Shown: in pieces, positions 11,721 through 55,555 of the stretch
How the letters are laid out: each line of letters begins with the position of its first letter
How positions within the stretch are numbered: the stretch's first letter is position 1
Origin: a virus
Reading direction: 5' to 3' (one strand)
DNA length: 64,000 nt
Virus record (IMG/VR): IMGVR_UViG_3300037493_003396
Coordinates: 2,352-66,351 of that record
Notes under the pieces: generated by a model
Told to the model about the DNA's origin: nothing
Databases searched by the model: none
The model's input: the letters and a program-made list of their open reading frames with translations, nothing else
Position numbers and translations under genes: made by a program

Positions 11721-12323
11721 ATGGCTTATAAGAAATTTGATGACCCTAATACAAAGGTCGATGATTCAAGGAACAAGATTAACGACAATTTTATGAATTC
11801 GGCAGTCCGTCTGGCGATTCAGGGAATTGCAAACCGTGTGCTCGGTGGAACATCCGGTACCGGTTCGACAGTAGCTCTTGCGGGATGCGCGGCTGGTGGC
11901 ACGGTTGGATTCAAAACGGCTTCAGATGTGGCGATTGTTCACAACGGCGTTTATGCTTTGGTTGCCGCGAAGGACAATCTTTATTTTGGGACATGCGGTA
12001 CACTGGCTGCCAATACGGTAGCGAAGTTCCTCATCTGTTCCGTTGACGGAGGTGCCGCAACCAATATCGGCCCGGGTAATGTCGTGAGTAAAGCGGACTA
12101 CGCTTCTGCGACTCTCGCAGCCGCGGCGGCGAAACTTCCCGATCTGCCCAGCGGTGGTGTGGCTCTGGGTTATGTAACCCTGCACGCTCCAGCTCTGACT
12201 CAGTTGGTTTTGACTGATGGAGCAACGACAGCAGCAGCACGACTCGGTTATGGAATCGGTGCGGCTGGAACGACCGGAACTGCGACGTATGTTGATTTGA
12301 TGAATATGCCGCTTAACCTGTAA
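11721..12323 (+). CDS. probable capsid decoration/minor virion protein
   Basis: Gly/Ala/Thr-rich, after MCP, GGAGG RBS. Confidence 0.6.
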   Translation: MAYKKFDDPNTKVDDSRNKINDNFMNSAVRLAIQGIANRVLGGTSGTGSTVALAGCAAGGTVGFKTASDVAIVHNGVYALVAAKDNLYFGTCGTLAANTVAKFLICSVDGGAATNIGPGNVVSKADYASATLAAAAAKLPDLPSGGVALGYVTLHAPALTQLVLTDGATTAAARLGYGIGAAGTTGTATYVDLMNMPLNL

Positions 12324-12330
12324 TTTTCAA

Positions 12331-12353
12331 AAGGGGGTGTAAAAAACCCCCTT
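12331..12353. terminator. hairpin, possible terminator
   Basis: AAGGGGGT-GTAAAAA-ACCCCCTT. Confidence 0.45.
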
Positions 12354-12380
12354 AAAAACTTTGGAAGGGAGAGTTTTACC

Positions 12381-12701
12381 ATGGCTACAAAAAAGAGTGA
12401 TGAAGAGTCGAATCCTAAAGGATATTTTAGCGGACCGAAAGGACACCCCAAGGACAGGATAGTTATCCACGAAGCTGTGGATATCCCCCGTGAAGGTATG
12501 TTCATTTCATTAAACGGATATCCGTATTTGATCAAGCCAGGCGAGGAAGTTGATGTTCCCCGTCCGGTAAGGGATATGCTGGACACACGAATCGTCACGA
12601 TTACGTCTCACGATGAAAGCGGCAAGGAGTACACCAAAGATATCAAACGGGTGAACTATACTCTTATTAAACAGGATGTTGATGCGGTGGAGGCAGTTTA
12701 A
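12381..12701 (+). CDS. conserved head-module hypothetical protein
   Basis: FISLNGYPYLIKPGEEVDVP motif common downstream of N4-type MCP. Confidence 0.7.
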   Translation: MATKKSDEESNPKGYFSGPKGHPKDRIVIHEAVDIPREGMFISLNGYPYLIKPGEEVDVPRPVRDMLDTRIVTITSHDESGKEYTKDIKRVNYTLIKQDVDAVEAV

Positions 12702-13819
12702 TGCTTGGCAGTGAACTTATCACGCATTTGAGAGAGAGTATATTGGATGATGTGGCTTTGCCTCAGTTATGGTCGGACTCGGAACTTCTCCGTTTCCTAA
12801 ACTATGCTGAGGTGCAAGCCTGCCGTCGGGCTCATCTTCTAATTGATTCTTCAACAGCAAACGACAATGGCACAGCGGCAACTGCCGGCACAATGGGGCA
12901 AAAACCTTTGTGTACTCTGTCAGTAATTGCCAATCAGGCCACTTATAACCTTTCTCCGAAGATACTCCAGATAAAGAGATGCCAGTTGCGATCAATGGTA
13001 ATCCCTTTAACTGGGCCGGTTGTTTACCCGGAATTGGACGACTTGGTATCGGGGTGGATGGGGACAGGCGGAGTGGTTACCGGCGCCGGTAACGACGGGG
13101 TTCAGGCTAAAGGAACGATTGTATCTGACGGTACTTTGGGTACCGCCGGAGCGGTTGTTACGGTCGGAACCAACGGGTACACTTTTGTTGCGACTCTATC
13201 GGCTGAGAACCATGTATTGAGAGGAACTTCTGGGGCTGATGATCTTGACCATTTAAAATCAGCCATAAACAACGGCGGGACTTCTGCGTTACATATTTGT
13301 TCAGCCGTTCATCCGAAGGTTACGGCGGCTCACACGGTTTCCGGAACTGCAGGGACGATGACTCTTACTGCCAAACTAAACGGCACCGCTGGCAATGGGA
13401 TCGCGTTATTATCAACAGATGCCCATTTAGTAATGAGCGGAACTTACATGACGGGCGGAGTTGATAACTCAGGGGAACCTACTTACTTCCTGAATGAGCC
13501 GGGGAATACGATTACTTTCGTTCGTTCTCCGTCTTATGACGATACAGCCGATCTGGTAGTTTCGAGAATACCGTTGACGAGTTTAACCAAAACAACATCC
13601 CCCGAAATAGATGAGCAATACCATTTGGGACTTTGTGATTGGGCGGCTCATCTTGCTTATATGAAGTCAGATACAGAAACTCAAAATCTTAACCTTTCCA
13701 AGTTTTATGAAAATCAGTTTGATAGACAATTCGGAACTTTGCCGGACGCTTACATTCAAAAGCTGAGGAAAAGCATTTCTCAGAAACAACGTATGCGACC
13801 GCGCGAGTTTGGATCCTAG
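12701..13819 (+). CDS. head-tail adaptor protein with inserted sheath-type beta domain
   Basis: LWSDSELLRFLN..A, TYNLSPKILQI, PEIDEQYHLGLCDWAAHLAY motifs. Confidence 0.75.
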   Translation: MLGSELITHLRESILDDVALPQLWSDSELLRFLNYAEVQACRRAHLLIDSSTANDNGTAATAGTMGQKPLCTLSVIANQATYNLSPKILQIKRCQLRSMVIPLTGPVVYPELDDLVSGWMGTGGVVTGAGNDGVQAKGTIVSDGTLGTAGAVVTVGTNGYTFVATLSAENHVLRGTSGADDLDHLKSAINNGGTSALHICSAVHPKVTAAHTVSGTAGTMTLTAKLNGTAGNGIALLSTDAHLVMSGTYMTGGVDNSGEPTYFLNEPGNTITFVRSPSYDDTADLVVSRIPLTSLTKTTSPEIDEQYHLGLCDWAAHLAYMKSDTETQNLNLSKFYENQFDRQFGTLPDAYIQKLRKSISQKQRMRPREFGS

Positions 13820-13830
13820 GAGGATTTAAT

Positions 13831-14130
13831 ATGGCGATTTTAAAATTTAAGAAAATGATCGAAGATTTGGAGACTGGTTCGACACAGGTTCTCGCAACTT
13901 TGACCATAGCGAATGTAACTACCGTTGGGTACGCTACTTCCGTAGGCACCGCAGGGGTAATGGCTCTTGCAACCTCTGCCGCTAATGCGGGCAGTTCGTC
14001 CTTTGCAACGACCGCCTCTAAAGCCGGAAGTGCGGCTCAGGCTGGAACAGCAAGAGTTGCCCATTACGCATCGTCTGGTACAGCGAATATCGCTGGAACA
14101 AGCGCGCATTGGTCAACAGGTGGTTTATAA
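13831..14130 (+). CDS. small virion protein with A-x-x repeats, paralogous to tail-fibre repeat
   Basis: ATSAANAGSSSFATTA shared with 14983 ORF. Confidence 0.7.
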   Translation: MAILKFKKMIEDLETGSTQVLATLTIANVTTVGYATSVGTAGVMALATSAANAGSSSFATTASKAGSAAQAGTARVAHYASSGTANIAGTSAHWSTGGL

Positions 14131-14203
14131 TCAAGTGGGGGTGAAAGCCCCCGCTTAAACTTCACAGGGAATGACGACGAGCCCTGTTTGACGAGGAGGT
14201 TTT

Positions 14204-14590
14204 ATGGCAGAACGACGAATCCAATCTATTCCTTTATTCAAAGAAACAAAATTTGGGACATCCGGAACAACGGCAACCATTGATTCCGACGTTATAGATT
14301 TGAGAGATATTTCCCGAACAGGACAGTTTTCTCTTGCATTCAACGTCTCAACAGCCGGTGACGTAGCGAGTTGCGGATCGGTTAAATTCTCTTACTGGTG
14401 TAGTCAGAATTTCGATGGAACTTATATTTCTCCAACCGACGGAACCTTTTGCACGATAGGTAACGCTGGGTCGTTGGGGACAAGCGATGTGATCGCTTTA
14501 ACGCCTCCGGTGGCCCCGTTTATTAAAATACGCGGAGTTCAAGGAACAAGTGGGACATCTCTCATAACAGCATCATTGAATGTTCGATAG
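14204..14590 (+). CDS. virion structural protein (beta-sandwich-like)
   Basis: GGAGG RBS, position in tail module. Confidence 0.65.
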   Translation: MAERRIQSIPLFKETKFGTSGTTATIDSDVIDLRDISRTGQFSLAFNVSTAGDVASCGSVKFSYWCSQNFDGTYISPTDGTFCTIGNAGSLGTSDVIALTPPVAPFIKIRGVQGTSGTSLITASLNVR

Positions 14591-14599
14591 GGGGAAGAC

Positions 14600-14986
14600 A
14601 TGGCAGAGATCCGAAGGCTTTCACTTATCAGGGGAAACAGTCTCACGATTCCAGTAACAATGGAATCATCGGCAGGCGTTGCGTATAATATCAAAAATTG
14701 GGTGGTGTATTTCACTTTAAAGACAGATCACTCTCTACCGGATTCTCAGGCTACGTTACAGAAAATAATCACAACCTTTTCCGACACTACTTCTGGAACT
14801 ACAGGGATAGCGAATATTCCTCTTGTGGAAACGGACACGCAGAACCTCGCTGTTGGAGAATATGATTTTGATATTAAGGTTTTGACGGCGGGTACTTTAG
14901 GCACATCGTCGTACACGGTTATGAAGGGAAAGTTTGATTTAGAATACAATGTAACTGATTCGGTGGGAACAGCCGGGACGCTATGA
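14600..14986 (+). CDS. BppU-like Ig-fold virion protein
   Basis: IRGNS..IPVT, VYFTLK, DTQNLAVGEYDFDIKV, VMKGKF pattern. Confidence 0.7.
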   Translation: MAEIRRLSLIRGNSLTIPVTMESSAGVAYNIKNWVVYFTLKTDHSLPDSQATLQKIITTFSDTTSGTTGIANIPLVETDTQNLAVGEYDFDIKVLTAGTLGTSSYTVMKGKFDLEYNVTDSVGTAGTL

Positions 14987-17900
14987 CAGAGATAAAAACA
15001 ACAATAACATCGGACGCGCCGGTAACGGCCACGATGAAAACAGAGACTCCGGTAAAAGTAACTGTGACATCGGATTCCCCGGTTACTGCTGTTTTAAAAA
15101 CTGAAACACCGATAAAAGCGCAGATATCTACAGCAGACCCAATAGTTGCGAGAATAGTCACAGGGGAAGCAGGGTCTTCTGGAACAAGTGGAACTTCGGC
15201 GGCGGGCGGGATTGCTGATTTTGCTTCTTCCGCAGGGACTTCTCTTTACGCCGGAACATCTGGGACGGCTCTTTATGCCGCCTCTGCCGGAAACGCCGGT
15301 AGTGCGGGAAGCGCCACAACTGCCGCAAATGCTGGAACTGCGGAATACGCTATTTCTGCAGGGAACGCCGGGTCTTCTGGGTCAGCCACTACATCCGCTA
15401 ATGCCGGATCATCTTCTTTTGCCACTACAGCCGCGATATCAGGCACAGCGCCTTACAGTGGGACTGCCTCATTTGCTACTTCAGCAGGGGAAAGTGGAAG
15501 CGCGGGTTCCGCAACCACAGCAGCGAACGCTGGTTCTGCCTCTTTCGCAACAACCGCCGGGATTGCGGGTACCGCACCCTATAGCGGCACATCAGAATAT
15601 TCTATTTTATCCGGAACGGCTTCTTTTTCTAATTCGGCTGGAAACTCTGGGAGCGCGGGGTCAGCGACTACAAGCGCAAACGCCGGAAGTTCATCTTTTG
15701 CGACGACAAGTTCCATCGCTGGAACAGCGCCATATAGTGGGACGTCGTCCTTTGCTACCTCTGCCGGGGACTCGGGGTCGGCAGGTTCCGCCACCACGGC
15801 GGCAAATGCGGGGTCTTCATCCTATACTACTACCGCGTCCATCGCTGGAACGAGTCCATATAGCGGTACCGCTTCTTACGCCACCACTGCCGCAAATGCT
15901 GGCACTGCTTACAAAGCTACGTCTGCGGCTCAGGCGGGTTCGGCGGGTTCGGCAACAACCGCGGCAAACTCAGGAAGTGCATCCTTTGCTACCACAGCCG
16001 GAATCTCCGGCACGAGTCCGTACGCTGGAACAAGTTCGTTTGCGACTTCGGCGTCAACGGCGGGTTACGCCGCAACGGTGGGACCTGATATTTTAGTCAA
16101 TCACATTGGCGAACAGGATACTGCTCATGGGGTCGTTATTGATAATGATTTACATGGTGGAGTAGTTGGAGATGGGATTGATGTCGATATTCACGCCACT
16201 CTGGGAGCAGAACTGTCCCCTGTATTTACGGCGGCAAACTGGACAGCGGGCGCAGGATGGTCTATTAACGATGGAACGGGAATAGTCACGGCAGTTGCCG
16301 GTGTTGCCTCTGATCTGACTCCTTCTACTCCGATAACAGCAAATATAACGAAGAGGTACAAACGGACATTTGTTATCACAGATTGGACAGCAGGGACATT
16401 AACCGCAACATTTGGTGGGGTTGTGAGTACACCACTCTCGGGAGACCAGACAGTTTCTATTTATATAGATCCCTACACCACGGGGACTCTAACACTTACC
16501 AAAGATGCCGCATTTGCAGGTAAAATAAGTCTCTGTTCTTTGAAAGAAATAACTAAAGGAAACTTAACTATTGAGGGCGACATTCATCACCTAGATTCAA
16601 GAGGACACCCTAACCGTCTAGCTTATTCAACTCGTCACATGAACGAAATGCAGACAGATACTTTACTTGATAAATCAAGAAGCACTTTGTCTTGCACGGG
16701 TGGAGTCCTTACTTACACTTTAATTGCTATCTTCGGGAATGGTACTTTTAACTTTAATGGTATTCCTTACCCTGTAGAAGCGGATTCTGTTTCAATAGCT
16801 TTAACCGCAGGGACTGACGCAGCACCACAGATCAATTACGTTAATTTCCACTTGGTCGGAAACACACCTACTTTAAGAGTTAGCACAACTTATCCAACAG
16901 ATGTTCATATAGACGTTGCTACTTGGCTTGTGGGTACTGTTTCGGGAAGTTCCTACACTATTTACGCTTACGACAGAAACCGTTACGAAACTGAATCTTT
17001 AGTTAAGAGAATCATAGAGAGATTTGAGAAATCAGGGACTCTTTATTCAAGCGGTGGTGTGCCTACAGTCGCACAGACTACTTTGAGCATCGCTTCGGGA
17101 TGCGAGTTCTTTAACGGCATCTTTGAAATGACTTCTGCTAATACTACAACTCTGGCAGGGTTTACGATTATTAAAAACGGAGCATTTTCTGCGGCAACCT
17201 CAATAGCGGAAACTTTGTTTTATTCTGATGGCACAGCAGTCGGTAATCATTACTTTGCTAACGTAGTATGGGGAATAGTTCCGACAACTACTACCGCAGG
17301 GGGAACGGTTGCCGTTACGGTTAAACTTTACGCTATACTTCAAACCAAACCTACGGCTGAATACACGCTTGCACAAGCTCGACAGGATTTATATGAAGCG
17401 ACAAACTACTATCCTTCAAATTCAGCAGTTAAGAATGTATTCGTTCCTATTTGCCGAACGATAGTAAGTGAAGATAATCCAACTCAATTTCAGACATTTG
17501 ATACAGGACTTTACCATAAAGACGTAAGAGGAAAGATAACAAGTGGTGGCGGTGCGGCAACATCTTACACACACCCAAATCATACAGGAGAGGTGACGTC
17601 TGTTGGAGACGGTGCTTTAACGATTGGTACTTTAACCCACGACCTACAGTTCGCCACCTACAAAGCTATCGCTATGGCTTGTGATAACGGAGCAACTCTA
17701 CCATCAACCCCTGTTATTGGACAATGGTTTCTTCATACCCCAACAGGTAGAAATGTTTTAATGCAGTACACAGGTTCAGCGTGGCAGCCTATTATTAGTT
17801 TTGGTTCTATGACAATGTATGTTGCGGGGAACAGCGTTGGTTCAGATGTAGCAGATAACGGAACAGGCACAGCATACACAAGTGGCTCTCTTGTTTCGGG

Positions 17901-19269
17901 AAGAAGTTATCATATTTCAACTTTTGTTGCAGGTGATGATTTCTCAAATGTTGGCGCATACAATATCACAGATAATCAATTCAAAGCTACAGGAACAACT
18001 CCGACAGATTGGACTCATGGCTCGACTTTAGTTGATATGGATTCCACTTCGTTCCTAACAGGTACTTATGCAGTTAGTATTATTCCACCCGTAGTAACGG
18101 GAACTGTATATATTAGATTTAGCGGTGATACTTTTGCTGAAACAATAGTGATGAGAGGAAAATATTTTAGTGGAAATTATCGAATACAATTATACGGGAC
18201 TTTAGAAGTGCAAGAAATAATTTCATCAGCAACCATCACAAGGGGAACAGGAATACAAAGAAGCGTTATTACTAAATCAGGCGCATTTAATGGTGATAAT
18301 TATGCTAATGTGGTCGCTTACTACGCTACAGACGGTATTTATAGAATAATAGACGGGCATACAGTTACTTTACCTGCTGACCAAGCCTCTGTCCCAAGCA
18401 CAGACGATATTGCCGTAGGAGATATTATCAAAGGTGCTACATCAGGAGCTTATGGTGATGTTTTGGAGGTAACCGGTACTGGAAGTTTTGCTAGTTCTAA
18501 TTGGTCAGGAACTTTTTTAATCCAAGTTACTTATGGAACTTTCCAAAGTGGTGAGAATTTAGACAATGTAACAGACTCAAAATTAGCAGTTTGTACCACG
18601 ACTTCGACTGTTACAGTTAATGACGACAATATTACAATGGTAGGAACTGCGTCTTCTTCTACAACGCAAGATGTTGTTATTTTTGATTGGCTGACTGATA
18701 TTTCGATTATACAATCGGTAACAACCCAACAAGCAATAGATGTTTTTAATTGTTATTGTTCTGATGGTGTTAATTTGAATAGTTGGGGGCGTGCTCAGTT
18801 ATATAGATGTAAGTTATACAAATCAACCGGTGCTATTATTCCATTAAGCGTCAGTCAATTTTCGGTAGGAAATTTGAACCAGTGTTATATAGATGGTAGT
18901 AGTGCCAGTTCATGTGTTTTAGTAACAAATTCTTTAGTTCAAGTATCACAATCTAAAATAATTGGTAATAGTACGGCTAGTAGTCGTTATGGTATTCAAG
19001 TATATGATATTGGTACGATAGCTTTTACTCTTGGTCAAAGTATTATTGATGGTCTTACTTTATATACAGGGGGTAAAGGTATTTATTTACAATCTAACTC
19101 CACATTAAGACATAATCTTACTGCGGCTCAGGGATACACAAGAATAAGAAACCTTGTTACAGGAATAGGTGCAGATACAGGAGCGCAAGCAATCGCAACT
19201 AGTGTAGTCTATAGCAACAACACAACACCCACAGACGCTGTTTCCGCAAGTTACGGTTATATAGGATAA
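14983..19269 (+). CDS. tail fibre/spike protein (1428 aa)
   Basis: N-terminal tandem repeats, Ser/Thr/Gly-rich, YTHPNHTGEVT motif, C-terminal beta-helix-like region. Confidence 0.85.
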   Translation: MTEIKTTITSDAPVTATMKTETPVKVTVTSDSPVTAVLKTETPIKAQISTADPIVARIVTGEAGSSGTSGTSAAGGIADFASSAGTSLYAGTSGTALYAASAGNAGSAGSATTAANAGTAEYAISAGNAGSSGSATTSANAGSSSFATTAAISGTAPYSGTASFATSAGESGSAGSATTAANAGSASFATTAGIAGTAPYSGTSEYSILSGTASFSNSAGNSGSAGSATTSANAGSSSFATTSSIAGTAPYSGTSSFATSAGDSGSAGSATTAANAGSSSYTTTASIAGTSPYSGTASYATTAANAGTAYKATSAAQAGSAGSATTAANSGSASFATTAGISGTSPYAGTSSFATSASTAGYAATVGPDILVNHIGEQDTAHGVVIDNDLHGGVVGDGIDVDIHATLGAELSPVFTAANWTAGAGWSINDGTGIVTAVAGVASDLTPSTPITANITKRYKRTFVITDWTAGTLTATFGGVVSTPLSGDQTVSIYIDPYTTGTLTLTKDAAFAGKISLCSLKEITKGNLTIEGDIHHLDSRGHPNRLAYSTRHMNEMQTDTLLDKSRSTLSCTGGVLTYTLIAIFGNGTFNFNGIPYPVEADSVSIALTAGTDAAPQINYVNFHLVGNTPTLRVSTTYPTDVHIDVATWLVGTVSGSSYTIYAYDRNRYETESLVKRIIERFEKSGTLYSSGGVPTVAQTTLSIASGCEFFNGIFEMTSANTTTLAGFTIIKNGAFSAATSIAETLFYSDGTAVGNHYFANVVWGIVPTTTTAGGTVAVTVKLYAILQTKPTAEYTLAQARQDLYEATNYYPSNSAVKNVFVPICRTIVSEDNPTQFQTFDTGLYHKDVRGKITSGGGAATSYTHPNHTGEVTSVGDGALTIGTLTHDLQFATYKAIAMACDNGATLPSTPVIGQWFLHTPTGRNVLMQYTGSAWQPIISFGSMTMYVAGNSVGSDVADNGTGTAYTSGSLVSGRSYHISTFVAGDDFSNVGAYNITDNQFKATGTTPTDWTHGSTLVDMDSTSFLTGTYAVSIIPPVVTGTVYIRFSGDTFAETIVMRGKYFSGNYRIQLYGTLEVQEIISSATITRGTGIQRSVITKSGAFNGDNYANVVAYYATDGIYRIIDGHTVTLPADQASVPSTDDIAVGDIIKGATSGAYGDVLEVTGTGSFASSNWSGTFLIQVTYGTFQSGENLDNVTDSKLAVCTTTSTVTVNDDNITMVGTASSSTTQDVVIFDWLTDISIIQSVTTQQAIDVFNCYCSDGVNLNSWGRAQLYRCKLYKSTGAIIPLSVSQFSVGNLNQCYIDGSSASSCVLVTNSLVQVSQSKIIGNSTASSRYGIQVYDIGTIAFTLGQSIIDGLTLYTGGKGIYLQSNSTLRHNLTAAQGYTRIRNLVTGIGADTGAQAIATSVVYSNNTTPTDAVSASYGYIG
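15172..16077 (+). repeat. degenerate tandem coding repeat (approx. 42-aa unit built on A/S-x-x triplets)
   Basis: AGSAGSATTAANAGSxSFATTAxIxGTAPYSGTxSFATS repeated about five times with heavy synonymous divergence. Confidence 0.9.
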
Positions 19270-19271
19270 AT

Positions 19272-19695: not shown

Positions 19696-19707
19696 GAGGT
19701 TTTCTGA

Positions 19708-20520: not shown

Positions 20521-20897
20521 TGAAGTTTTTATTTCCCGTAGCGGTGAGTTTAGTTTTTATTTTAATGGTTATGATAGTAGGATGTACTCTTTTACGTTTC
20601 CTGCCGGCAGAACAAATCGCTTTGCAAAGTATGGCAAGGAAGGCAGGATTTATCTTTGGCAAGCAGCATCCGGAGATGATACCGCAAGCAAGATTAATTG
20701 CTTTAGGAATTGAGGCGAGCGAGGATGAGGACGTAAAAAAGAACTTTAATCTTGCTGTTGAGGCGCTTTTAAAGCACTTCCCGAATACAATCTTAAAGCG
20801 GCAGATTGATGTAGTTCTAATCGAAATAGCCAAGACAAATGCGGACCTGATTCCGATTGTCGAGGCATTTATTGAAGGGATGGAGAAATCATTATGA
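20517..20897 (+). CDS. putative lipoprotein in lysis module
   Basis: Signal peptide with IVGC lipobox-like motif. Confidence 0.55.
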   Translation: MMKFLFPVAVSLVFILMVMIVGCTLLRFLPAEQIALQSMARKAGFIFGKQHPEMIPQARLIALGIEASEDEDVKKNFNLAVEALLKHFPNTILKRQIDVVLIEIAKTNADLIPIVEAFIEGMEKSL

Positions 20898-21310
20898 AAG
20901 GTGATCATATTGAGTATCAAAGTGGGTATAAATACCAAGTTCGTAAGAAGTATATAGTCCAAGTTGGTATCTTTCCGGATAAGGATATCATTACTCCGTT
21001 CTTAAAGCTTCGTACGAATGGTAATCTTGAGATTGAATTAGGATATGCCTGGGATGGTGCGAGTGGGCCTACTTGGGATGATAAGACTAATATGAGGGGC
21101 TCTTTAGTTCATGATGCTCTTTATCAACTCATGCGTGAAGGCGTATTGCCTCTTACATATCGAGCCAAGGCTGATGATCTCTTAAGCGAGATAATGATTG
21201 AAGACGGTGCGTGGAAGATAAGAGCCAGCTATTACCACCTTGCAGTAGATAGAGTAGGGCTTACTGGAGCTACATGCGAAGGTGAAAGAAAGATAAATAT
21301 AGCCCCTTAA
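20894..21310 (+). CDS. DUF1353-like protein
   Basis: GYAWDGASGP, SLVHDALYQ, RAKADDLL motifs. Confidence 0.8.
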   Translation: MKGDHIEYQSGYKYQVRKKYIVQVGIFPDKDIITPFLKLRTNGNLEIELGYAWDGASGPTWDDKTNMRGSLVHDALYQLMREGVLPLTYRAKADDLLSEIMIEDGAWKIRASYYHLAVDRVGLTGATCEGERKINIAP

Positions 21311-21446
21311 TGGGTTTTATGCTAATAAAGTAATCTGAAGTGCCTTGGAGGCTAGGAAGATATTCCGAAGACGGACCCCTCCCGTCGCGCCTCCGAGGCC
21401 ACCAACTAATCAGAGGGAATCCTTCGGGGGAAAGGCAAGGTAAACA

Positions 21447-24404
21447 ATGTTTAAAGAGATCAAAGTAAAAGCAAGTTTTAACGAAAGAACGGGGTACGGA
21501 ATCCACGCGAGTCGGTTTTTTCCGGAACTGCAGAAGCTCGTTCCATCAGATGGAACCGGCACCGTTCATATTGCGTTACTTGATACAGTCAGCGCCTCAC
21601 AGGCGACAGAATTTGCTCCAAGTCCGTCAATCCTTTATAACGTATGGGAAAGTGACGAGCAACCACAAGATTTCATCGACAAATTAAAACATTATGATCA
21701 GCTATGGGTTCCGAGTGAATGGCAGAGGGCGGCTTCTATTGCCCAGGGAGTTCCGGAGGAATTTGTAAAAGTAGTTCCGGAAGGGGTTGACCCAGAGATC
21801 TATAAGCCAGTTAAAGAGGGAGAGCATAAAAGCTTTACTCACTACCCATTTACTTTTCTTGTTTGTGGTCAGTGGCAGCACCGCAAATCAACACTTGAAA
21901 TAATCCAAGCCTTTTTAAAGGCGTTTCCCGCAGAAACTTTCAGCAGATTTGACCAGGCGGAGAAAATTGTATTATATCAAGATGTACGTCTTGAGCTTTC
22001 AGTTGATACTTTATTCCCATCAGACCCTTATAAATCTACCGAGGAGAGGTTAAAAGCCTATGGCATCGATGACCCAAGAATCAGCGTTATACACTTTGAA
22101 GAGAGAGCAGACTATATCCGGAGGCTTCAATCAGCCCACTGCTTTGTGTCCTGTTCCCGTTCAGAAGGTTGGGGGTTGCCTATCGGGGAGGCAATCGCTG
22201 TCGGGTTACCTACAATCGTGGCAGATTGGGGTGGAAGTACAGAGTACGCTGGCAATGCTATTAATGTCAGGATCAAGGAATTAAGAAAACCGGAAGGGAT
22301 TTATGGTGGTTGGAATGTCCCTGGGCATTGGGCAGAACCGGATTATGATCATCTTGTTGAACAGATGAAACTTGTTTACAACACTTACCCGATTCACAAA
22401 ACATTAGCTTTAGAAAACGCAGAGGTAATGCGAACGGAGTTTTCATGGAAAGCCGCTGCCGAGAAAGCCTATAAAATACTGGAAGAATTAGCGGATAAAG
22501 TTCCTCTACCTATTGAAGAAAAAATGGTTATCAGGGGAGATAGTTTCGAGAAAGACATGAGAACTCTTGCGGCTAAGAACGGAATGGAAATAACCGGCAT
22601 TAAAAAGAGAAAGGCTATTTTCAGTATCGACTGCCATCCTTGCTCTCAGGAAAGAATCGATGTTTTAATCGAAACCATTAATCAGGTACGACCCTTTGGT
22701 TATCCGATACTTGTTGTAGCTCATCTACCCCTCCCAGAAGACGTTATTAAGTTATGTGACTACTACATCTACGATAAGAACGACATCATGTCAGGGGACG
22801 ACCTGCCGACTTATTCACGCACAAAACCGGATGGGACGGTGGAATACACGAAAGCCAGCAAACCCTGTCACGCACTCGCGGGTTTGTTGAACTGGCGGAA
22901 TGCCATTAATTTCTGCCGCGGTCGGTGGGATTGGATTTACCAGATGAACTCCGATGTTGAAATAGACATCAATGAGTGGATGGAGAAAGTCTATGCTTCC
23001 GACAAAGATATAATTGCTGTCCGGTGGGAAGGAGCCAAAGATACCTTTGGTGGGCAGATATGCGCCTCTAGGGTAGAAGCGATTGATAAAATATTCTTCC
23101 CTGTAGAAACATGGGAACAATTTGCGGCGACAATGAAAGAACACCGGTTCTGTTCTGAAAGAGGTTATTATAGAATAGCCGAACAGATGGGGCTGGAAAA
23201 TATAGAGTTTATTGACATTGAAATGGGGAATCTGTTTGATCAGGTTGACCGAGAAGCGTGGGGCGAAGATACTTTCCAGTATCATTTTGTTGAAGGTCCG
23301 TTTGTCCAAATTAACGGAATGTCAAAGAACGAGTACGATGTTGAATTTTCCTCAGAAAAACACACTTACAAGACCAAGTTAAAGGCGAATATGTGGTGCC
23401 GTCCGGAAGTAAAATACTATCAGGATTGGACATTAACAGTTCACCTAAATGGGGAGTTGAAATTAGAGCATAAATTTAACCCCACTGGTCAGAAAATATT
23501 GATCTCTATGGGGTCAAAAGCTCTGGGCGATACGATTGCTTGGATGCCTTACATTGAGGAATTCAGAAAGAAACACGACTGCCATGTCGTGTGTTCGGGG
23601 TGGTGGCAAGAAATGTTCGACTATCCCGAGATTGAATTTGTGAAGCCAGGCGCTCTTATTGACGGAGTTTATGCTTCCTACGGAGTTGGTTGTTACGACG
23701 ATCAGTTAAATCTGAATGTAACGAACTGGCGTTCTACAAATCTCCAACAGGTCGCGGCTGATATATTGGGGGTAGAATACAAGCCAATACGCGCCAAGTT
23801 AAAAGTCGTTCCTCATAAGAAAAAGAAAAAACCCTATATTTGTTTCTCCGAGCATTCGACCATGAGAAACAAACTCTGGAATCGTGAAGGAGCATGGCAG
23901 AAGGTTATTGATCATGTCAAGTCATTAGGAATGGACGCTATATCTATCAGCAACGAAAAGTCCGCAGTTAAAGGAGTTCTTGACCACGCCAACCAATCAA
24001 TCCAAAGAAGTATTACGGACATTGATGGATGCGAGTTTTATGTCGGGTTGAATGCCGGACCTTCTTGGATAGCCTACGCTCTTGGCAAACCAGTCATAAT
24101 GTTGACCGGAGTCTCAGAGGAGTGGAACGATTTCCCAAATCCTTACAGAATAGCGATAAACAATGAAGTTTGCGGAATAGGTTGTTTTAATGACCCGACA
24201 CTTCCTATAAGTAGAGACTGGTTATGGTGTCCCCGAGACAAAGACTATATTTGCACGGGTAACATAACCGAGCAAATGGTCATGGACATGATAGATCAGG
24301 TTATGGCAGACGTTGGTGTGCCTCACCATGACAGAAAGCACATAGCCATCGGACAGCCAAAGGTTGAGAGTAATCATCATGATGCGCCTGAAGTGGTGTG
24401 CTAG
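21447..24404 (+). CDS. multi-domain glycosyltransferase: GT4 + central domain + TibC/Aah-like protein O-glycosyltransferase
   Basis: GT4: SRSEGWGLPIGEAIAVGLPTI; C-term: ALGDTIAWMPYIEEFRKKHDC, KLWNREGAWQKVI, GPSWIAYALGKPVIM, CGIGC..WCP..C iron-finger-type cysteines. Confidence 0.88.
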   Translation: MFKEIKVKASFNERTGYGIHASRFFPELQKLVPSDGTGTVHIALLDTVSASQATEFAPSPSILYNVWESDEQPQDFIDKLKHYDQLWVPSEWQRAASIAQGVPEEFVKVVPEGVDPEIYKPVKEGEHKSFTHYPFTFLVCGQWQHRKSTLEIIQAFLKAFPAETFSRFDQAEKIVLYQDVRLELSVDTLFPSDPYKSTEERLKAYGIDDPRISVIHFEERADYIRRLQSAHCFVSCSRSEGWGLPIGEAIAVGLPTIVADWGGSTEYAGNAINVRIKELRKPEGIYGGWNVPGHWAEPDYDHLVEQMKLVYNTYPIHKTLALENAEVMRTEFSWKAAAEKAYKILEELADKVPLPIEEKMVIRGDSFEKDMRTLAAKNGMEITGIKKRKAIFSIDCHPCSQERIDVLIETINQVRPFGYPILVVAHLPLPEDVIKLCDYYIYDKNDIMSGDDLPTYSRTKPDGTVEYTKASKPCHALAGLLNWRNAINFCRGRWDWIYQMNSDVEIDINEWMEKVYASDKDIIAVRWEGAKDTFGGQICASRVEAIDKIFFPVETWEQFAATMKEHRFCSERGYYRIAEQMGLENIEFIDIEMGNLFDQVDREAWGEDTFQYHFVEGPFVQINGMSKNEYDVEFSSEKHTYKTKLKANMWCRPEVKYYQDWTLTVHLNGELKLEHKFNPTGQKILISMGSKALGDTIAWMPYIEEFRKKHDCHVVCSGWWQEMFDYPEIEFVKPGALIDGVYASYGVGCYDDQLNLNVTNWRSTNLQQVAADILGVEYKPIRAKLKVVPHKKKKKPYICFSEHSTMRNKLWNREGAWQKVIDHVKSLGMDAISISNEKSAVKGVLDHANQSIQRSITDIDGCEFYVGLNAGPSWIAYALGKPVIMLTGVSEEWNDFPNPYRIAINNEVCGIGCFNDPTLPISRDWLWCPRDKDYICTGNITEQMVMDMIDQVMADVGVPHHDRKHIAIGQPKVESNHHDAPEVVC

Positions 24405-24747
24405 AGGAGCAAGAACTACAATGAGAAGGTTTAATTATTATTTTTTGACGGATAGCAGTACGAACCAATTCTCTGGCTTTGGATGCTTCCGTCCCTCTAT
24501 GTTTTCTTGCAAGGGCAAGCCGGAGTTCTTTAAATTTAAGATAGGACTCTGCGCTCCGTTGACGTTCCTTTTCTCTAAATTCAGAGTCAATTCTTCTTCG
24601 GATAGCGTTTCTTTCGCGGCTGATCTGGTTGTGGTGCTCTCTATTTTTATCTCTCCATTCCGCAGTTTCTTGGATAGCTTGCTCGCGATGTTTGTGGTAA
24701 AATCGTTTACGTCTTTCTTGGGCTTTGATATCGTCCTTGTAAAGCAT
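24301..24747 (-). CDS. HNH-type endonuclease, antisense insertion
   Basis: CSSC..QAHHDDYSQPLAVRWLCAFCHGEAH; GGAGG RBS. Confidence 0.85.
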   Translation of the reverse strand: MLYKDDIKAQERRKRFYHKHREQAIQETAEWRDKNREHHNQISRERNAIRRRIDSEFREKERQRSAESYLKFKELRLALARKHRGTEASKARELVRTAIRQKIIIKPSHCSSCSSSTPLQAHHDDYSQPLAVRWLCAFCHGEAHQRLP

Positions 24748-24771
24748 AAATGTTCCTCCTTTTTTGGTTAT

Positions 24772-24800
24772 ATTATACATGGGTGGGAATGTAATGTCAA
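24772..24800 (-). promoter_or_regulatory. consensus sigma70 promoter for antisense HNH
   Basis: Minus strand TTGACA-17 bp-TATAAT. Confidence 0.85.
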
Positions 24801-25021
24801 GATTTAAAATGGGAGAAAAAGATGGCGGAGAAAAAACATTTAACACAAGTCCATTAAGTGACCCGAGGGCGGAGGATTCAAACTATCTTCCGTTTGATAT
24901 TCCGATTGGGAAAGCAAAAGATTACCCTGATACTCCGGAAGGTCGAAAGAAGATGTTTAATGTTTTAAAAATGATACGAAAAGACAATAATCCCAATAAT
25001 GGTTTTGGGATTGGAGGATAG
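24794..25021 (+). CDS. hypothetical protein
   Basis: ORF track; start uncertain. Confidence 0.55.
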   Translation: MSRFKMGEKDGGEKTFNTSPLSDPRAEDSNYLPFDIPIGKAKDYPDTPEGRKKMFNVLKMIRKDNNPNNGFGIGG

Positions 25022-25022
25022 T

Positions 25023-25928
25023 ATGGCAGAGCAGATTTACAGCTTGGCGTATTTTACCGGAATAAATACTGTTGATGATTCTGTCAGAATGGCTCCGGTT
25101 CCGGTTGAAGCAGGCGGAATTAAGTCTGCTTATTCCCTAACTTCTGCTGTTAATGTGGACATAGACAATTCTTACGCCTTGAAGAGCCGAGCCGGATGCA
25201 CAAAGAAAATATCAGGAACGAATATTCATAGTTTGTGGAGCCGGAAAGAATATGGGTTTTATCTTGACGGAAGTAGTCTTTACCTCCTCAACCCAGACTA
25301 CACAACGTCATTACTATTGTCATCGCTCAGTTTAGATCGAATGTCTTATGTTGCTGTTAATGATAGGGTTTACATGACCAATGGAACGTACATAGGTTAT
25401 TATGATGGGACGATGCACAGCCTATCAGTTCCTACGCAAACGTACAAAAGACCGTTACCGGCGGGGCAGTTGATCGCCTACATAAAAGGAACTTTGATGG
25501 TTGCCTCTGGGAAAGTTGTTTATCTCTCAGATGCGTTATGCGATCATTATGACGAAAGAAGTGGGTTCAGAGTTTTCGAAAATAATGTTTTAATGTTACG
25601 ACCGGTGGATGACGGGGTTTATGTTTCCGATGGCTCAACTTGGTATTTAGTTGAAAGAAGCGATGACCCTGCTGAGTATAAAAAAGAATACATAAATAGT
25701 ATCGGGGTAGTCCCCTTTTCGGACGTTGTTGTAGACGGCGCTTACGTTGGGAAGGGTGTTGAGGGGAAAGTCGCTCTATGGGCAACCGATGAAGGGATTT
25801 GCATGGGGGATAACAAAGGCGGAGTGAAACTATTAACTCCGAATTATTTGATGAAACAACTCGGCAGAGGTGCCGCAATGATCAGAAATCTAAACGGGCA
25901 AGTTCATTATATTGCGACTATGAGGTGA
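25023..25928 (+). CDS. tail/nozzle-type virion protein (beta-propeller-like)
   Basis: FTGINTV, AVNVDIDN, beta-rich; podovirus tail position. Confidence 0.65.
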   Translation: MAEQIYSLAYFTGINTVDDSVRMAPVPVEAGGIKSAYSLTSAVNVDIDNSYALKSRAGCTKKISGTNIHSLWSRKEYGFYLDGSSLYLLNPDYTTSLLLSSLSLDRMSYVAVNDRVYMTNGTYIGYYDGTMHSLSVPTQTYKRPLPAGQLIAYIKGTLMVASGKVVYLSDALCDHYDERSGFRVFENNVLMLRPVDDGVYVSDGSTWYLVERSDDPAEYKKEYINSIGVVPFSDVVVDGAYVGKGVEGKVALWATDEGICMGDNKGGVKLLTPNYLMKQLGRGAAMIRNLNGQVHYIATMR

Positions 25929-25931
25929 TTT

Positions 25932-26252
25932 ATGGCAGAAGGAATTGGAGGGTATGACCCTAAAACGGGTAAAATCAAATCAGCTTTCGACTTTGACAAA
26001 ATAGAGGCGGAGGCGAAGGCTTCTGTTAAGCCCCGAGTCAAGAAATGGTGGGAGCCCCCAGTTGATGCAGTCTATGGAAAGATTCAGGAAGCAAAAGCGG
26101 GAATTGGTGATATGACAGATAGGGCGGGGAAATTATGGTCGGAAGCAACGGCAGAAACTCCAAGGGAAGAACCTTCTCCGACTATTAACATAGACGAAAA
26201 GAAACAGTTAAAAGAGTTTGAAGATGAAGAAAAGAAGAAAAACAACAAATAG
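25932..26252 (+). CDS. hypothetical protein
   Basis: GAGGTG RBS, ORF track. Confidence 0.65.
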   Translation: MAEGIGGYDPKTGKIKSAFDFDKIEAEAKASVKPRVKKWWEPPVDAVYGKIQEAKAGIGDMTDRAGKLWSEATAETPREEPSPTINIDEKKQLKEFEDEEKKKNNK

Positions 26253-26264
26253 GAGGAAAGTATT

Positions 26265-26711
26265 ATGTGTGCATTGCGTTTATCAACAGGCTTAAGATCG
26301 GGAATAGCGGGAACATTGGGACTTCAAACAATGCTCCAGGGCGGACACATTGACATTTATTCAGGCGGTCAACCGGCTTCCGCAGATTACGCAGAGACAG
26401 GGGTAAAATTAGTAAGAATCACTGTCGCAAGTGGTGATGTGGCTACAGCGGGATTGGCTTTTACCGCCGCAACTTTAGGCATACTGGGGAAGAGTGGGAC
26501 GACATGGTCGGGTATCGCTTCCGTAGCAGGCGTGGCGGGTTATTTCCGGTTTTATTGCACAGCGGGTACTTCCGGTTCGTCGGCTACCGACAGGAGAGTT
26601 GACGGAAATGTAGGAGTTAGCGGATCTGACCTTGTCTTGGCGAATACTTCTCTGGTCGCGGGTGCAACTTTGACGGTTGATACATTTGCTCTGACAGTAC
26701 CTAGCGCATAA
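26265..26711 (+). CDS. virion structural protein
   Basis: LRLSTGLR, IDIYSGGQPASAD, GVAGYFRF, DGNVG motifs. Confidence 0.75.
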   Translation: MCALRLSTGLRSGIAGTLGLQTMLQGGHIDIYSGGQPASADYAETGVKLVRITVASGDVATAGLAFTAATLGILGKSGTTWSGIASVAGVAGYFRFYCTAGTSGSSATDRRVDGNVGVSGSDLVLANTSLVAGATLTVDTFALTVPSA

Positions 26712-26720
26712 GGAGGGCTT

Positions 26721-27161
26721 ATGGCTTATCGAATTAATGGTCCTTTGCGGTCATTGATGGTTGACGTCGTGACGGCTAGACTTTCAGGAACAAACGGTAC
26801 TGCCGGAACTCAGGGGATGTTGCGCATTTACAGCGGTGCAGCTCCGGCTACAGCTGACGAAGCCCCGGGTGCTAATAATGTTCTTCTTGTTTCAATCGCG
26901 AGTAATGCGGCGGGAACTGGAATCAACTGGTCGTCTGGTACCAATGGAACCGCAGTAGCAAGCAGGGCTCAGTATCTTGGGACGGCGGCGACTTCGGGCA
27001 TTGCCCAATGGGGCAGATTATCAGGAACAGACGGGACTGGATACGTCGTTCAGGGAGATGTTGGCACTTCGGCAACGTCGGCATTTATTATTAATTCAGT
27101 TACTATTGCCGCATTGTCTGTTGTTTCAATGAACTCAATGACGATGATTCAAGATGGGTAA
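26721..27161 (+). CDS. virion structural protein, paralog of preceding gene
   Basis: LRIYSGAAPATAD, GIAQWGRL, QGDVG align with 26265 ORF. Confidence 0.75.
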   Translation: MAYRINGPLRSLMVDVVTARLSGTNGTAGTQGMLRIYSGAAPATADEAPGANNVLLVSIASNAAGTGINWSSGTNGTAVASRAQYLGTAATSGIAQWGRLSGTDGTGYVVQGDVGTSATSAFIINSVTIAALSVVSMNSMTMIQDG

Positions 27162-55526: not shown

Positions 55527-55555
55527 CGGTGCATACAGCACCAGAAGGAGGGAGT

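What the first reader, a model, noticed from the sequence alone, without database searches (positions are those of the whole stretch)
11721..27161. Recurrent G-T-x-G-T motif in unrelated virion proteins: candidate glycosylation sequon
By eye I count 15 exact GTxGT motifs in six proteins: 11721 (GTSGT, GTCGT, GTTGT), 12701 (GTLGT, GTAGT), 14204 (GTSGT x2), 14600 (GTLGT, terminal GTAGT), 14983 (GTSGT x2), 26721 (GTNGTAGT, GTNGT, GTDGT), plus near-matches (GTAG, GTSG, GTLG) in 13831, 26265 and 28127. I saw none in TerL, portal, MCP, the 3604-aa internal protein or the replication/sugar enzymes. The proteins have different folds and the codons differ, so this looks like convergent protein-level selection for a surface tag rather than DNA repeats.
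Basis: partly seen in the sequence, partly recalled or inferred. Interest (0 to 1): 0.88.

Follow-up and report, generated by a model that had tools for sequence, protein, structure and literature searches.

The report
Gly-Thr triplet tag on phage virion proteins
A short Gly-Thr-x-Gly-Thr motif is scattered over unrelated particle proteins of this phage, and the phage also carries an enzyme of the kind that attaches sugars to proteins, so the motif is probably a sugar-attachment tag, though this has not been shown by experiment.

Summary
There are 15 GTxGT in six + strand ORFs and none in the 48 other ORFs I called. Composition shuffles give 0.48 expected. Shuffles that keep every GT dipeptide give 4.2, and 0 of 20,000 reach 15. 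Codons differ and the six proteins share no sequence similarity.

The motif is a short run of G-T-x triplets. It is conserved across a clade of about 66-76-kb phages, where relatives' tail fibres carry long (G-T/S-S)n arrays. It is missing from homologous loops in outgroup phages.

New here: ORF 21447-24404, inside the structural module, fuses a GT4 glycosyltransferase to a TibC/Aah-type protein O-glycosyltransferase (BAHT) domain. The catalytic Asp and the four iron-finger Cys are kept. Unrelated phages, including Microcystis phage Mel-JY01, place BAHT genes next to GTx arrays.

Best reading, about 0.55: GTxGT is an O-glycosylation acceptor tag on Thr. No glycan has been demonstrated, and many GTx arrays occur in records without BAHT.

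The parts
11721..12323 (+). 200-aa protein just downstream of the MCP gene, no named family; three GTxGT (nt 11847-11861, 11988-12002, 12267-12281)
   Evidence: no Pfam or PHROG hit. 48 distinct homologs in the clade. Over 48 homologs the site at aa 43 reads G40 T44 x G47 T38, and the site at aa 183 reads G30 T44 x G48 T48. Model pLDDT 74.6: the motifs sit at a strand end or loop start (43-47), in the loop between E84-87 and E93-95 (90-94), and in a low-confidence segment before E187-192. Only weak fold matches, to N-terminal parts of tail-fibre/RBP chains, Z 5.3 or less.
12701..13819 (+). Head-to-tail adaptor (SU10 adaptor family) with a ~125-aa inserted domain; two GTxGT (nt 13130-13144, 13343-13357), both inside the insert
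   Evidence: PF24175, 66.4 bits (cut-off 27). The alignment of 37 adaptors shows clade-specific GTxGT loops at columns 67/70 and 139/145 (28 and 25 of 37 sequences). At those places the Rollin adaptor has gaps or no GT.
13831..14130 (+). 99-aa protein that shares the Ala/Ser/Thr-rich repeat of the fibre; 4 GT dipeptides, near-matches only
   Evidence: E 5e-9 to 14983.
14204..14590 (+). 128-aa protein, no named family; two GTSGT (nt 14255-14269, 14543-14557)
   Evidence: 31 of 32 homologous ORFs in related loci carry 1-3 GTxGT, at partly shifting positions.
14600..14986 (+). 128-aa protein (phrog_1084); GTLGT (nt 14891-14905) and C-terminal GTAGT (nt 14966-14980)
   Evidence: The C-terminal GTAGT is near-invariant (G24 T24 A23 G24 T21/S3 of 24 homologs). 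GTLGT lies in a 3-residue insertion that is absent from all 24 homologs.
14983..19269 (+). 1428-aa tail-fibre-like protein; two GTSGT (nt 15181-15195, 15253-15267) and 40 GT dipeptides in an N-terminal repeat region
   Evidence: GT dipeptides 40 against 22.9 expected. Homologous ORFs in relatives carry 0-79 GTxGT, as (G-T/S-S)n arrays.
21447..24404 (+). 985-aa candidate modifying enzyme: an N-terminal GT4 glycosyltransferase (about aa 80-340) fused to a C-terminal TibC/Aah-type (BAHT) protein O-glycosyltransferase domain (about aa 607-952)
   Evidence: PF00534 and PF20706. TIGR04414: E 1.1e-56, 192.5 bits, cut-off 200. PDB 4RAP TibC: E 1.5e-35. Kept residues: Asp695 (TibC Asp110), Thr805, Lys809, Trp874, and Cys909, 913, 928 and 936. 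Full-length homologs are present in G001-G003.
26265..26711 (+). 148-aa virion structural protein (phrog_3758), paralog of 26721; near-matches only
26721..27161 (+). 146-aa virion structural protein (phrog_3758); four GTxGT (nt 26787-26801, 26796-26810, 26937-26951, 27024-27038)
   Evidence: Model pLDDT 87.5: residues 23-30 form a flexible loop, 73-77 a hairpin loop between E70-72 and E77-80, and 102-106 the start of the loop between E97-102 and E110-115. Best fold match is a chain of the phage 7-7-1 tail fibers entry, 9rkv_A (E 1.4e-5, TM 0.66/0.69), followed by neck chains of Bas63 and Sf14. Five outgroup homologs have 0 GTxGT.
28127..28960 (+). 277-aa Gly-rich protein with 7 GT dipeptides and no GTxGT
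   Evidence: GT 7 against 3.6 expected, P 0.045.
3708..4379 (+). FkbM-family methyltransferase; possibly belongs to the same glycan machinery
   Evidence: PF05050, E 8.5e-14. The Mel-JY01 enzyme is annotated 'methyltransferase FkbM' and has the GT4 and BAHT parts at its two ends. Homologs in G001-G003.
52408..62393 (+). Nucleotide-sugar genes: DegT aminotransferase, formyltransferase, weak GNAT, CmcI-type methyltransferase, glucose-1-phosphate cytidylyltransferase-like, CDP-glucose 4,6-dehydratase, C-methyltransferase, B12 radical-SAM enzyme
   Evidence: dehydratase TIGR02622, 389.9 bits, above its cut-off of 278. The set is only partly conserved in the clade: by tblastn, G001 lacks the cytidylyltransferase, DegT, formyltransferase and C-methyltransferase.

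Best explanation
GTxGT is the minimal form of a (Gly-Thr-x)n tag on exposed loops and tails of virion proteins. The proposal is that it serves as the acceptor site for O-glycosylation of Thr, carried out in the infected cell by the phage's 985-aa enzyme (ORF 21447-24404).

Proposed mechanism:
[quoted passage not shown] It would attach the first sugar.
- The flanking glycines would let the loop protrude into the catalytic cleft.
- The fused GT4 domain, the separate FkbM and CmcI methyltransferases and the nucleotide-sugar genes would extend or decorate the glycan.
- In relatives, the same tag is multiplied into long collagen-like (G-T/S-S)n fibre arrays, which would become densely glycosylated rods.

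Shown: motif enrichment, clade-wide conservation, absence of the motif from outgroup homologs, homology and conserved catalytic residues of the enzyme, and gene linkage in independent phage lineages.

Inferred: that any sugar is attached, which residue carries it, which domain acts first, and which sugar is used.
For: 1. Enrichment is far beyond composition and beyond GT-dipeptide content, with a strict spacing of 3 and varying codons.

2. The motif recurs in six families with no detectable similarity. In 167 distinct non-fibre clade proteins there are 345 GTxGT, against 21 GTxxGT and 5 GTGT. Ser replaces Thr fairly often (GTxGS 70, GSxGT 45). G and T are among the best conserved columns while x varies.

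3. In 82 loci, 0 of 83 MCP, 0 of 56 portal and 0 of 32 TerL homologous ORFs carry the motif. By contrast it is in 61 of 66 (11721 family), 50 of 53 (adaptor), 31 of 32 (14204) and 26 of 30 (14600) homologous ORFs.

4. In three further whole contigs, all motif-bearing ORFs but one lie between the MCP gene and the giant-protein gene.

5. Enzyme: TIGR04414 E 1.1e-56; TibC 4RAP E 1.5e-35. The residues that PMC4358343 names as catalytic base, sugar-binding and iron-finger (passages) are matched, except Arg286. The gene lies inside the structural module.

6. [quoted passage not shown] In the two models, T44 of 11721 and T103 of 26721 sit directly after a strand, and the motifs at 90-94 and 73-77 are hairpin loops.

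7. Co-distribution: a BAHT fusion is present in 3 of 3 long clade records and in 0 of 2 records of the MCP-55% clade, and in 0 of 5 further outgroup records. 17 of 18 outgroup loci have 0-1 GTxGT.

8. Independent lineages: of 53 distinct non-clade BAHT loci (35-41% identity), 22 have an ORF with 8 or more GTxGT within 10 kb. In 10 of these the array ORF lies within 500 bp of the BAHT ORF, on contigs up to 288 kb long.

9. The Mel-JY01 enzyme shares both the GT4 part (35%) and the BAHT part (36%). It is flanked by frames with 73 and 4 GTxGT.

10. Reverse test: 9 of 72 records with (GTx)5 arrays hold a BAHT gene. For comparison, at least 570 BAHT relatives were found among 2.9 million viral contigs.

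11. Precedents: Thr in the GPT collagen-like triplets of BclA3 is O-glycosylated by the product of the adjacent gene (PMC7157674, passages). Glycans on the C-termini of mycobacteriophage capsid and tail-tube proteins are cited in PMC12619734 (passages).
Against: - No direct evidence of a glycan on any protein.
- The enzyme scores 192.5 bits, just under the curated 200-bit cut-off for the heptosyltransferase equivalog. Arg286 aligns to Ser, with an Arg one position earlier, and the donor-selectivity position Pro300 is Asn. The donor sugar is therefore unknown.
- The link is not obligatory. 31 of 53 distinct non-clade BAHT loci have no array within 10 kb. 63 of 72 array-bearing records have no BAHT. 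Among records at least 80% complete that have an ORF with 10 or more GTxGT, only 3 of 6 have one.
- Co-occurrence within the clade is a single phylogenetic event.
- Short GTxGT in globular proteins has so far been seen only in this clade.
- Known BAHT substrates are beta-helical autotransporters with mostly Ser acceptors and no sequence consensus.
- One of the seven modelled motifs lies in a segment with pLDDT under 50 and the two overlapping ones in a loop partly so, and I could not compute solvent exposure.
Confidence: 0.55

Rival explanations
1. GTxGT is a structural or assembly element with no sugar on it. It would be a mini collagen-like Gly-X-Y unit or a tight turn that this clade uses in loops and tails, perhaps as a docking site for fibres. 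The BAHT enzyme would then act only on the long fibre arrays, or on something else such as a host protein.
For: The context is triplet-periodic: G at -3 in 41%, at +6 in 46% and at +9 in 29% of instances. The same triplets build long arrays in fibres and continue in register with GPP triplets in Mel-JY01. Arrays exist in records without BAHT, including a 100%-complete 247-kb record with an ORF of 87 GTxGT. Part of one motif (the 'NGT' turn, G76) is also present in outgroup homologs.
Against: Two or three triplets inside globular beta proteins cannot form a triple helix. Outgroup homologs keep the same loops without the motif, so the fold does not need it. This phage keeps an intact BAHT fusion although its own fibre has only two GTSGT and no long array. 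A purely structural turn would not be expected to appear convergently in six unrelated families while being absent from 48 other proteins.
Confidence: 0.27
2. The motif is a tag for a different modification or partner. Candidates are another enzyme in the window, such as the B12 radical-SAM protein or a methyltransferase, or a chaperone or host factor that binds G-T-x.
For: The radical-SAM gene 61158 and the CmcI-type methyltransferase are conserved in G001-G003. The radical-SAM protein has weak hits to RiPP and protein-modifying radical-SAM families.
Against: These genes lie among nucleotide-sugar genes, and their best family hits concern sugars or lipids. I did not test their linkage to GTx arrays in other lineages. 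BAHT linkage, by contrast, was tested and found.
Confidence: 0.08
3. The pattern is a by-product of Gly/Thr/Ala/Ser-rich low-complexity composition, or of DNA repeats.
For: The six proteins are Thr-rich (13.4% against 5.7% in the rest) and Gly-rich.
Against: 0 of 5000 composition shuffles and 0 of 20,000 shuffles that keep GT dipeptides reach the observed count. GTxGT ranks first of 400 XYxXY patterns, and its codons vary. There is positional conservation across sequences of 30-67% identity.
Confidence: 0.02

Closest known systems
Bacterial autotransporter heptosyltransferases (BAHT: TibC, Aah)
   Same: The C-terminal ~350 residues are homologous over nearly the whole profile. The catalytic Asp, Thr226, Lys230, Trp305 and the four iron-finger Cys are kept. 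Like the known enzymes, this one would be a cytoplasmic enzyme that uses a nucleotide sugar and hyperglycosylates Ser/Thr in loops of beta-rich surface proteins.
   Different: It is encoded by a phage, fused to a GT4 domain, and lies in a virion module. There is no autotransporter substrate. The proposed acceptor is a defined G-T-x triplet, whereas no consensus is known for Aah. It scores just under the curated cut-off; Arg286 and Pro300 are not matched; the donor is unknown.
Glycosylated collagen-like regions of spore proteins (BclA3 of C. difficile with SgtA; BclA of B. anthracis is recalled, not read)
   Same: Gly-X-Y triplets carry Thr that is O-glycosylated, and the transferase gene lies next to the substrate gene (PMC7157674).
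   Different: Thr is in the Y position there (G-P-T) and in the X position here (G-T-x). SgtA is a GT-A enzyme with TPR repeats, not a BAHT. Here the tag also occurs as 2-3 triplets in globular proteins.
Mycobacteriophage virion glycosylation (Freeman et al. 2023; seen only as cited in PMC12619734; the paper itself was not held)
   Same: Phage-encoded glycosyltransferases modify virion proteins, including C-terminal tails. Compare the C-terminal GTAGT of the 14600 family.
   Different: No BAHT-type enzyme or G-T-x sequon is mentioned in what I could read. Here the MCP has no motif. Host and phage lineages are unrelated.
Collagen-like repeats in phage tail fibres
   Same: Relatives' fibres and many viral contigs carry long arrays with Gly at every third residue.
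   Different: The window phage itself has no long array. The arrays here are of the Thr/Ser type and are often next to a BAHT gene.

Membership tests
BAHT (TibC/Aah autotransporter O-heptosyltransferase), for ORF 21447-24404 | Score over the curated NCBIfam equivalog cut-off (TIGR04414, 200 bits) | tested here: not met
   192.5 bits, E 1.1e-56, profile positions 9-374 of 374. I therefore file it as a homolog of the family, not as a heptosyltransferase equivalog. Eight other viral records score 212-322 bits.
BAHT (TibC/Aah autotransporter O-heptosyltransferase), for ORF 21447-24404 | Catalytic base Asp110 and sugar-binding Thr226, Lys230, Trp305 and Arg286 (PMC4358343) | tested here: inconclusive
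   Asp, Thr, Lys and Trp are matched and are invariant in 7 aligned phage sequences. Arg286 aligns to Ser, with an Arg one position earlier.
BAHT (TibC/Aah autotransporter O-heptosyltransferase), for ORF 21447-24404 | Iron-finger with four Cys (339, 342, 358, 370) | tested here: met
   All four align to Cys (aa 909, 913, 928, 936). The first pair is spaced CxxxC instead of CxxC. Iron binding itself was not testable.
BAHT (TibC/Aah autotransporter O-heptosyltransferase), for ORF 21447-24404 | Dodecameric ring; ADP-heptose donor; autotransporter beta-helix substrate | not testable with these tools
   No autotransporter gene was seen among the ORFs of the window that I scanned against Pfam. The donor-selectivity position Pro300 is Asn.
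Collagen-like (Gly-X-Y) repeat proteins | Long uninterrupted runs with Gly at every third residue | tested here: not met
   The window proteins have only 2-3 consecutive triplets. The feature is met by sequence in fibre homologs of relatives and in Mel-JY01. Triple-helix formation is not testable.
SU10 adaptor family (PF24175), for ORF 12701-13819 | Pfam gathering score | tested here: met
   66.4 bits against a cut-off of 27.
phrog_3758 virion structural protein, for ORFs 26265 and 26721 | Profile match and fold shared with solved phage fibre or neck proteins | tested here: met
   E 6.3e-18 and 2.5e-15. Foldseek: 9rkv_A, E 1.4e-5, TM 0.66/0.69.
Phage virion O-glycosylation (mycobacteriophage type) | Glycan demonstrated on virion proteins and dependent on phage glycosyltransferases | not testable with these tools
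   Sequence inference only. Needs mass spectrometry or glycostaining.

The most novel reading that the evidence does not exclude
Phages of many lineages carry an unrecognised protein-glycosylation system. In it, a TibC/Aah-type O-glycosyltransferase, often fused to GT4 and methyltransferase domains, would glycosylate Thr in G-T-x triplets. Such triplets occur as two-triplet tags written convergently into loops and tails of unrelated virion proteins, and as collagen-like fibres with hundreds of triplets. The result would be a sugar-coated virion. If so, GTxGT would be the first short, portable O-glycosylation sequon defined for a phage, and the first sequence-defined acceptor for the BAHT family.
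Probability: 0.4. Interest if true: 0.85.

Novelty: new variant of a known kind. Interest (0 to 1): 0.72.

Why it matters
Virion glycosylation by phage enzymes is known from few systems. From what I could read, none has a defined sequon. BAHT enzymes are known only as modifiers of bacterial adhesins and have no sequence consensus.

If GTxGT is the acceptor, three things follow:
- It gives a simple, testable rule for which phage proteins are sugar-coated.
- It explains a very common class of Thr/Ser-type collagen-like fibre arrays in viral metagenomes.
- It offers a small tag for putting glycans on phage particles, which is relevant to immune recognition, stability and adsorption.

The enzyme family is widespread: at least 570 viral contigs and 371 fusion-length proteins. 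A cultured phage, Mel-JY01, carries the pairing, so the idea can be tested directly.

Tried and rejected
Searches that led nowhere:
- The search for related loci with the 26721 protein and with the whole 985-aa enzyme as single queries found no relatives in viral contigs. The MCP and an alignment of BAHT domains worked instead.
- A near-identity DNA search of window 11000-30000 against the phages collection gave no match.
- tblastn of 14600 against the phages collection gave no match, so no outgroup test was possible for that family.
- 11721 has no Pfam or PHROG hit. It has no Foldseek PDB match at E <= 0.001 and only Z <= 5.3 by VIA-align. I do not name its fold.
- The middle part of the enzyme (about aa 350-600) has no Pfam hit at E <= 0.05.

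Ideas considered and rejected:
- A DNA-level cause, rejected because the codons vary.
- A composition artefact, rejected by the shuffles.
- An N-glycosylation sequon. Only the two GTNGT contain N-x-T, so it cannot explain the other 13.
- The phage tRNA-Thr as a driver of the motif. ACA makes up 35% of Thr codons in the six proteins and 31% in the rest, so there is no real difference.

Host inference failed. Clade contigs sit in MAGs of unrelated taxa.

Literature. Searches, of which I saw only listings with titles and abstract starts, showed no report of a phage BAHT-type enzyme, of a GTxGT sequon, or of Mel-JY01 glycosylation. This covers only the held library. Supplements are closed and were not seen.

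Not done:
- Complex prediction was not used (an enzyme with its substrate).
- The search of protein representatives, the protein-atlas search, the sequencing-run tools and the metagenome scan were not used.
- I ran no control set of random viral loci.

Full report
**What the window is.** The window is bases 2352-66351 of a single 66,351-bp phage contig. Nearly all genes lie on the + strand. Going along the strand:
- an FkbM-type methyltransferase (3708) and a tRNA-Thr (4382-4454);
- TerL (4648), a putative portal (5973) and an N4-gp56-like MCP (9833);
- the proteins of the finding (11721-19269) and an M15 peptidase (20158);
- a 985-aa glycosyltransferase (21447) and more virion proteins (24999-32745);
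- a 3604-aa protein with a ddrB-ParB domain;
- replication genes and a block of nucleotide-sugar genes.

No near relative exists in the phages collection. The MCP is 43% identical to that of Pseudoalteromonas phage vB_Pun_Y3 and 41% to that of Pseudomonas phage Rollin.

**The observation.**
- Shuffling residues within each protein gives 0.48 expected; 0 of 5000 shuffles reach 15.
- The GT dipeptide is itself enriched: 83 against 34.6 in the six proteins, but 52 against 64.5 in the rest.
- Because of that, I also shuffled with GT kept as a unit: 4.22 expected, maximum 14, and 0 of 20,000 reach 15.
- Spacing 3 dominates the gaps between successive GT dipeptides.
- GTxGT is the most enriched of all 400 XYxXY patterns (Poisson 4e-14).
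- The codons differ, and the six proteins show no pairwise similarity.

**What the motif is.** An MCP search of viral contigs gave 162 relatives, of which 80 loci were kept. Most have an MCP 73-90% identical to the window's. In these loci the motif is a family trait. GTxGT occurs in:

| Homologous ORFs of | With GTxGT |
|---|---|
| 11721 | 61 of 66 |
| adaptor (12701) | 50 of 53 |
| 14204 | 31 of 32 |
| 14600 | 26 of 30 |
| MCP | 0 of 83 |
| portal | 0 of 56 |
| TerL | 0 of 32 |

These counts include partial and duplicate ORFs.

- Sites are positionally conserved, with G and T kept and x free. In the 11721 family the site at aa 183 reads G30 T44 x G48 T48 of 48. The C-terminal GTAGT of the 14600 family reads G24 T24 A23 G24 T21/S3 of 24.
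- Other sites move about (14204 family).
- The window's GTLGT in 14600 is a 3-residue insertion.
- Over 167 distinct non-fibre proteins there are 345 GTxGT. Triplet periodicity extends beyond the motif: G at -3 in 41%, at +6 in 46% and at +9 in 29%.
- The fibre homologs of relatives carry up to 79 GTxGT as (G-T/S-S)n arrays with Gly at every third residue.

So GTxGT is the short form of a G-T-x triplet repeat. The window phage has only the short form.

**Is it required by the folds?** No, as far as outgroups allow a test.
- The phrog_3758 proteins of phiR18, KPP25, AP1, Seuss and Rollin align along their whole length with 26265/26721, yet have 0 GTxGT. The aligned loops read, for example, ADQPL and xDDGS. 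Only one 'NGT' turn is shared.
- Rollin's adaptor has gaps or no GT where 28 and 25 of 37 clade adaptors have GTxGT loops.
- 17 of 18 outgroup loci (MCP 33-57% identical) have 0-1 GTxGT in all their ORFs.

**Structure.**
- The 26721 model (pLDDT 87.5) places 23-30 in a flexible loop after a helix. [quoted passage not shown]
- The 11721 model (pLDDT 74.6) places 43-47 at the end of E39-43 and the start of a loop. It places 90-94 between E84-87 and E93-95, and 183-187 in a low-confidence stretch before E187-192.
- 26721 resembles a chain of the phage 7-7-1 tail fibers entry and neck chains of Bas63 and Sf14. The fold of 11721 remains unnamed.

**The candidate enzyme.** ORF 21447-24404 lies between the fibre gene and the second block of virion genes.
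- It has a GT4 domain at the N-terminus.
- At aa 607-952 it has a domain matching TIGR04414, 'autotransporter strand-loop-strand O-heptosyltransferase' (E 1.1e-56, 192.5 bits, cut-off 200), and TibC structure 4RAP (E 1.5e-35).
- PMC4358343 (passages) names Asp110 as the catalytic base, Arg286, Trp305, Thr226 and Lys230 as sugar-binding residues, and Cys339, 342, 358 and 370 as the iron finger. In the printed alignment all are matched except Arg286, which aligns to Ser with an Arg one position earlier. Pro300, the donor-selectivity position, is Asn. The matched residues are invariant in seven phage sequences.
[quoted passage not shown] That geometry fits four of the seven modelled motifs.

**Co-distribution.**
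- Within the clade, full-length fusions are present in all three long records searched. They are absent from two records of the MCP-55% clade and from five further outgroup records, among them the whole Y3 and Rollin genomes.
- In three whole clade contigs the motif-bearing ORFs all lie in the structural module, with one exception. All three keep the fusion, a CmcI-type methyltransferase, the radical-SAM gene and a dehydratase. G001 lacks several of the CDP-sugar genes. The first sugar is therefore more likely to come from a host nucleotide sugar (inference).
- The fusion is common: 371 proteins at E <= 1e-10 in the 541-1724-aa bin, of which the best 120 are 54-68% identical.

**Independent lineages.** An alignment of BAHT domains found at least 570 relatives in viral contigs.
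- Among 53 distinct non-clade loci (35-41% identity; BAHT alone or in proteins of up to 1527 aa), 22 have an ORF with 8-762 GTxGT within 10 kb. The array ORF is within 500 bp of the BAHT ORF in 10 of them and within 2 kb in 15.
- The only cultured hit is Microcystis phage Mel-JY01. It has a 1227-aa protein that shares both the GT4 part (35%) and the BAHT part (36%) and is annotated as an FkbM methyltransferase. Collagen-like frames with 73 and 4 GTxGT flank it, continuous with GPP triplets.
- In the reverse direction, (GTx)5 arrays are frequent in viral contigs (in frame in 69 of 73 loci). BAHT is on the same record in 9 of 72. For ORFs with 20 or more GTxGT the figure is 9 of 31 loci. Among records at least 80% complete with 10 or more GTxGT in an ORF it is 3 of 6.
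- The link is therefore strong against a base rate far below 1%, but it is not obligatory.

**Reading.** The best-supported explanation is that G-T-x triplets are acceptor sites for O-glycosylation by the GT4-BAHT enzyme. The short tags would mark exposed loops and tails of several virion proteins. I put this at about 0.55. The main rival (0.27) is that the short motifs are structural or docking elements, with the enzyme acting only on long arrays or on other targets.

Against my reading:
- no glycan is shown;
- the enzyme falls just under the curated cut-off, and its donor is unknown;
- many arrays lack BAHT and many BAHT loci lack arrays;
- the within-clade co-occurrence is one evolutionary event;
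- short tags in globular proteins are so far seen only in this clade.

**Comparison and novelty.** The enzyme is a homolog of the BAHT family but not a demonstrated heptosyltransferase, and it differs in context, fusion partner and proposed substrate. The substrates resemble the glycosylated GPT collagen-like region of BclA3 (PMC7157674) and the C-terminal glycans of mycobacteriophage virion proteins (as cited in PMC12619734; the original paper was not held). My literature searches, seen as listings only, turned up no phage BAHT or GTxGT sequon.

Noticed in passing
window 4382-4454 (+): The only tRNA in the window is tRNA-Thr (anticodon TGT), between the FkbM methyltransferase and TerL genes. 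The six motif proteins are 13.4% Thr against 5.7% in the rest. ACA use hardly differs, 35% against 31% of Thr codons.
   Followed up: partly
window 3708-4379 (+): An FkbM-family methyltransferase lies just upstream of TerL and is conserved in G001-G003. The Mel-JY01 GT4/BAHT protein is annotated as an FkbM methyltransferase, so the same three activities may occur fused or separate.
   Followed up: partly
window 32745-43559 (+): A 3604-aa protein whose only Pfam hit is a ddrB-like ParB domain at aa 568-706. Homologs of 3209 and 3685 aa occur in G001 and G003, and a long CDS with the same domain label (record 24147-34412) in phage vB_Pun_Y3. It contains no GTxGT.
   Followed up: no
L086 (Microcystis phage Mel-JY01, PP395634.1) 1-3052 and 9152-9986: The record annotates minus-strand CDS (1-651, 739-2298, 9361-9898) that read as VPE/VPL repeats. 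The + strand holds an open frame of more than 1000 aa, with collagen-like GTS/GSS/GPP arrays and a non-repetitive C-terminal part. The annotated strand is probably wrong.
   Followed up: partly
window 12701-13819 (+), about aa 120-250: The adaptor carries a ~125-aa inserted domain that is absent from most clade adaptors (247-250 aa) but present in L018 and L054. It has a weak match to phrog_165, tail sheath (E 3e-4). The insert sits exactly at a GTxGT loop and is itself rich in GT.
   Followed up: partly
L303, L304 (genome contigs); P0051: Phage contigs of this clade are filed in MAGs of unrelated organisms (Thermodesulfovibrionales, Nitrosotalea, Methanoregula). This looks like mis-binning and gives no host. 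More distant MCP relatives are prophage-like regions in Halomonas, Comamonas, Delftia and Variovorax.
   Followed up: no
L133 5418-14009, L147 11824-21087, L122 3452-10624 (viral contigs): Open frames of 2390-3087 aa, lying near BAHT genes, consist almost entirely of G-T-x triplets (507-762 GTxGT each). The coding strand was not verified.
   Followed up: no
window 14983-16100 and 13831-14130 (+): The N-terminal part of the fibre is a tandem array of Ala/Ser/Thr/Gly-rich units (my estimate by eye, roughly 40 aa each), each containing 'AGTxPYSGT'. The small ORF 13831 shares this repeat, E 5e-9.
   Followed up: no
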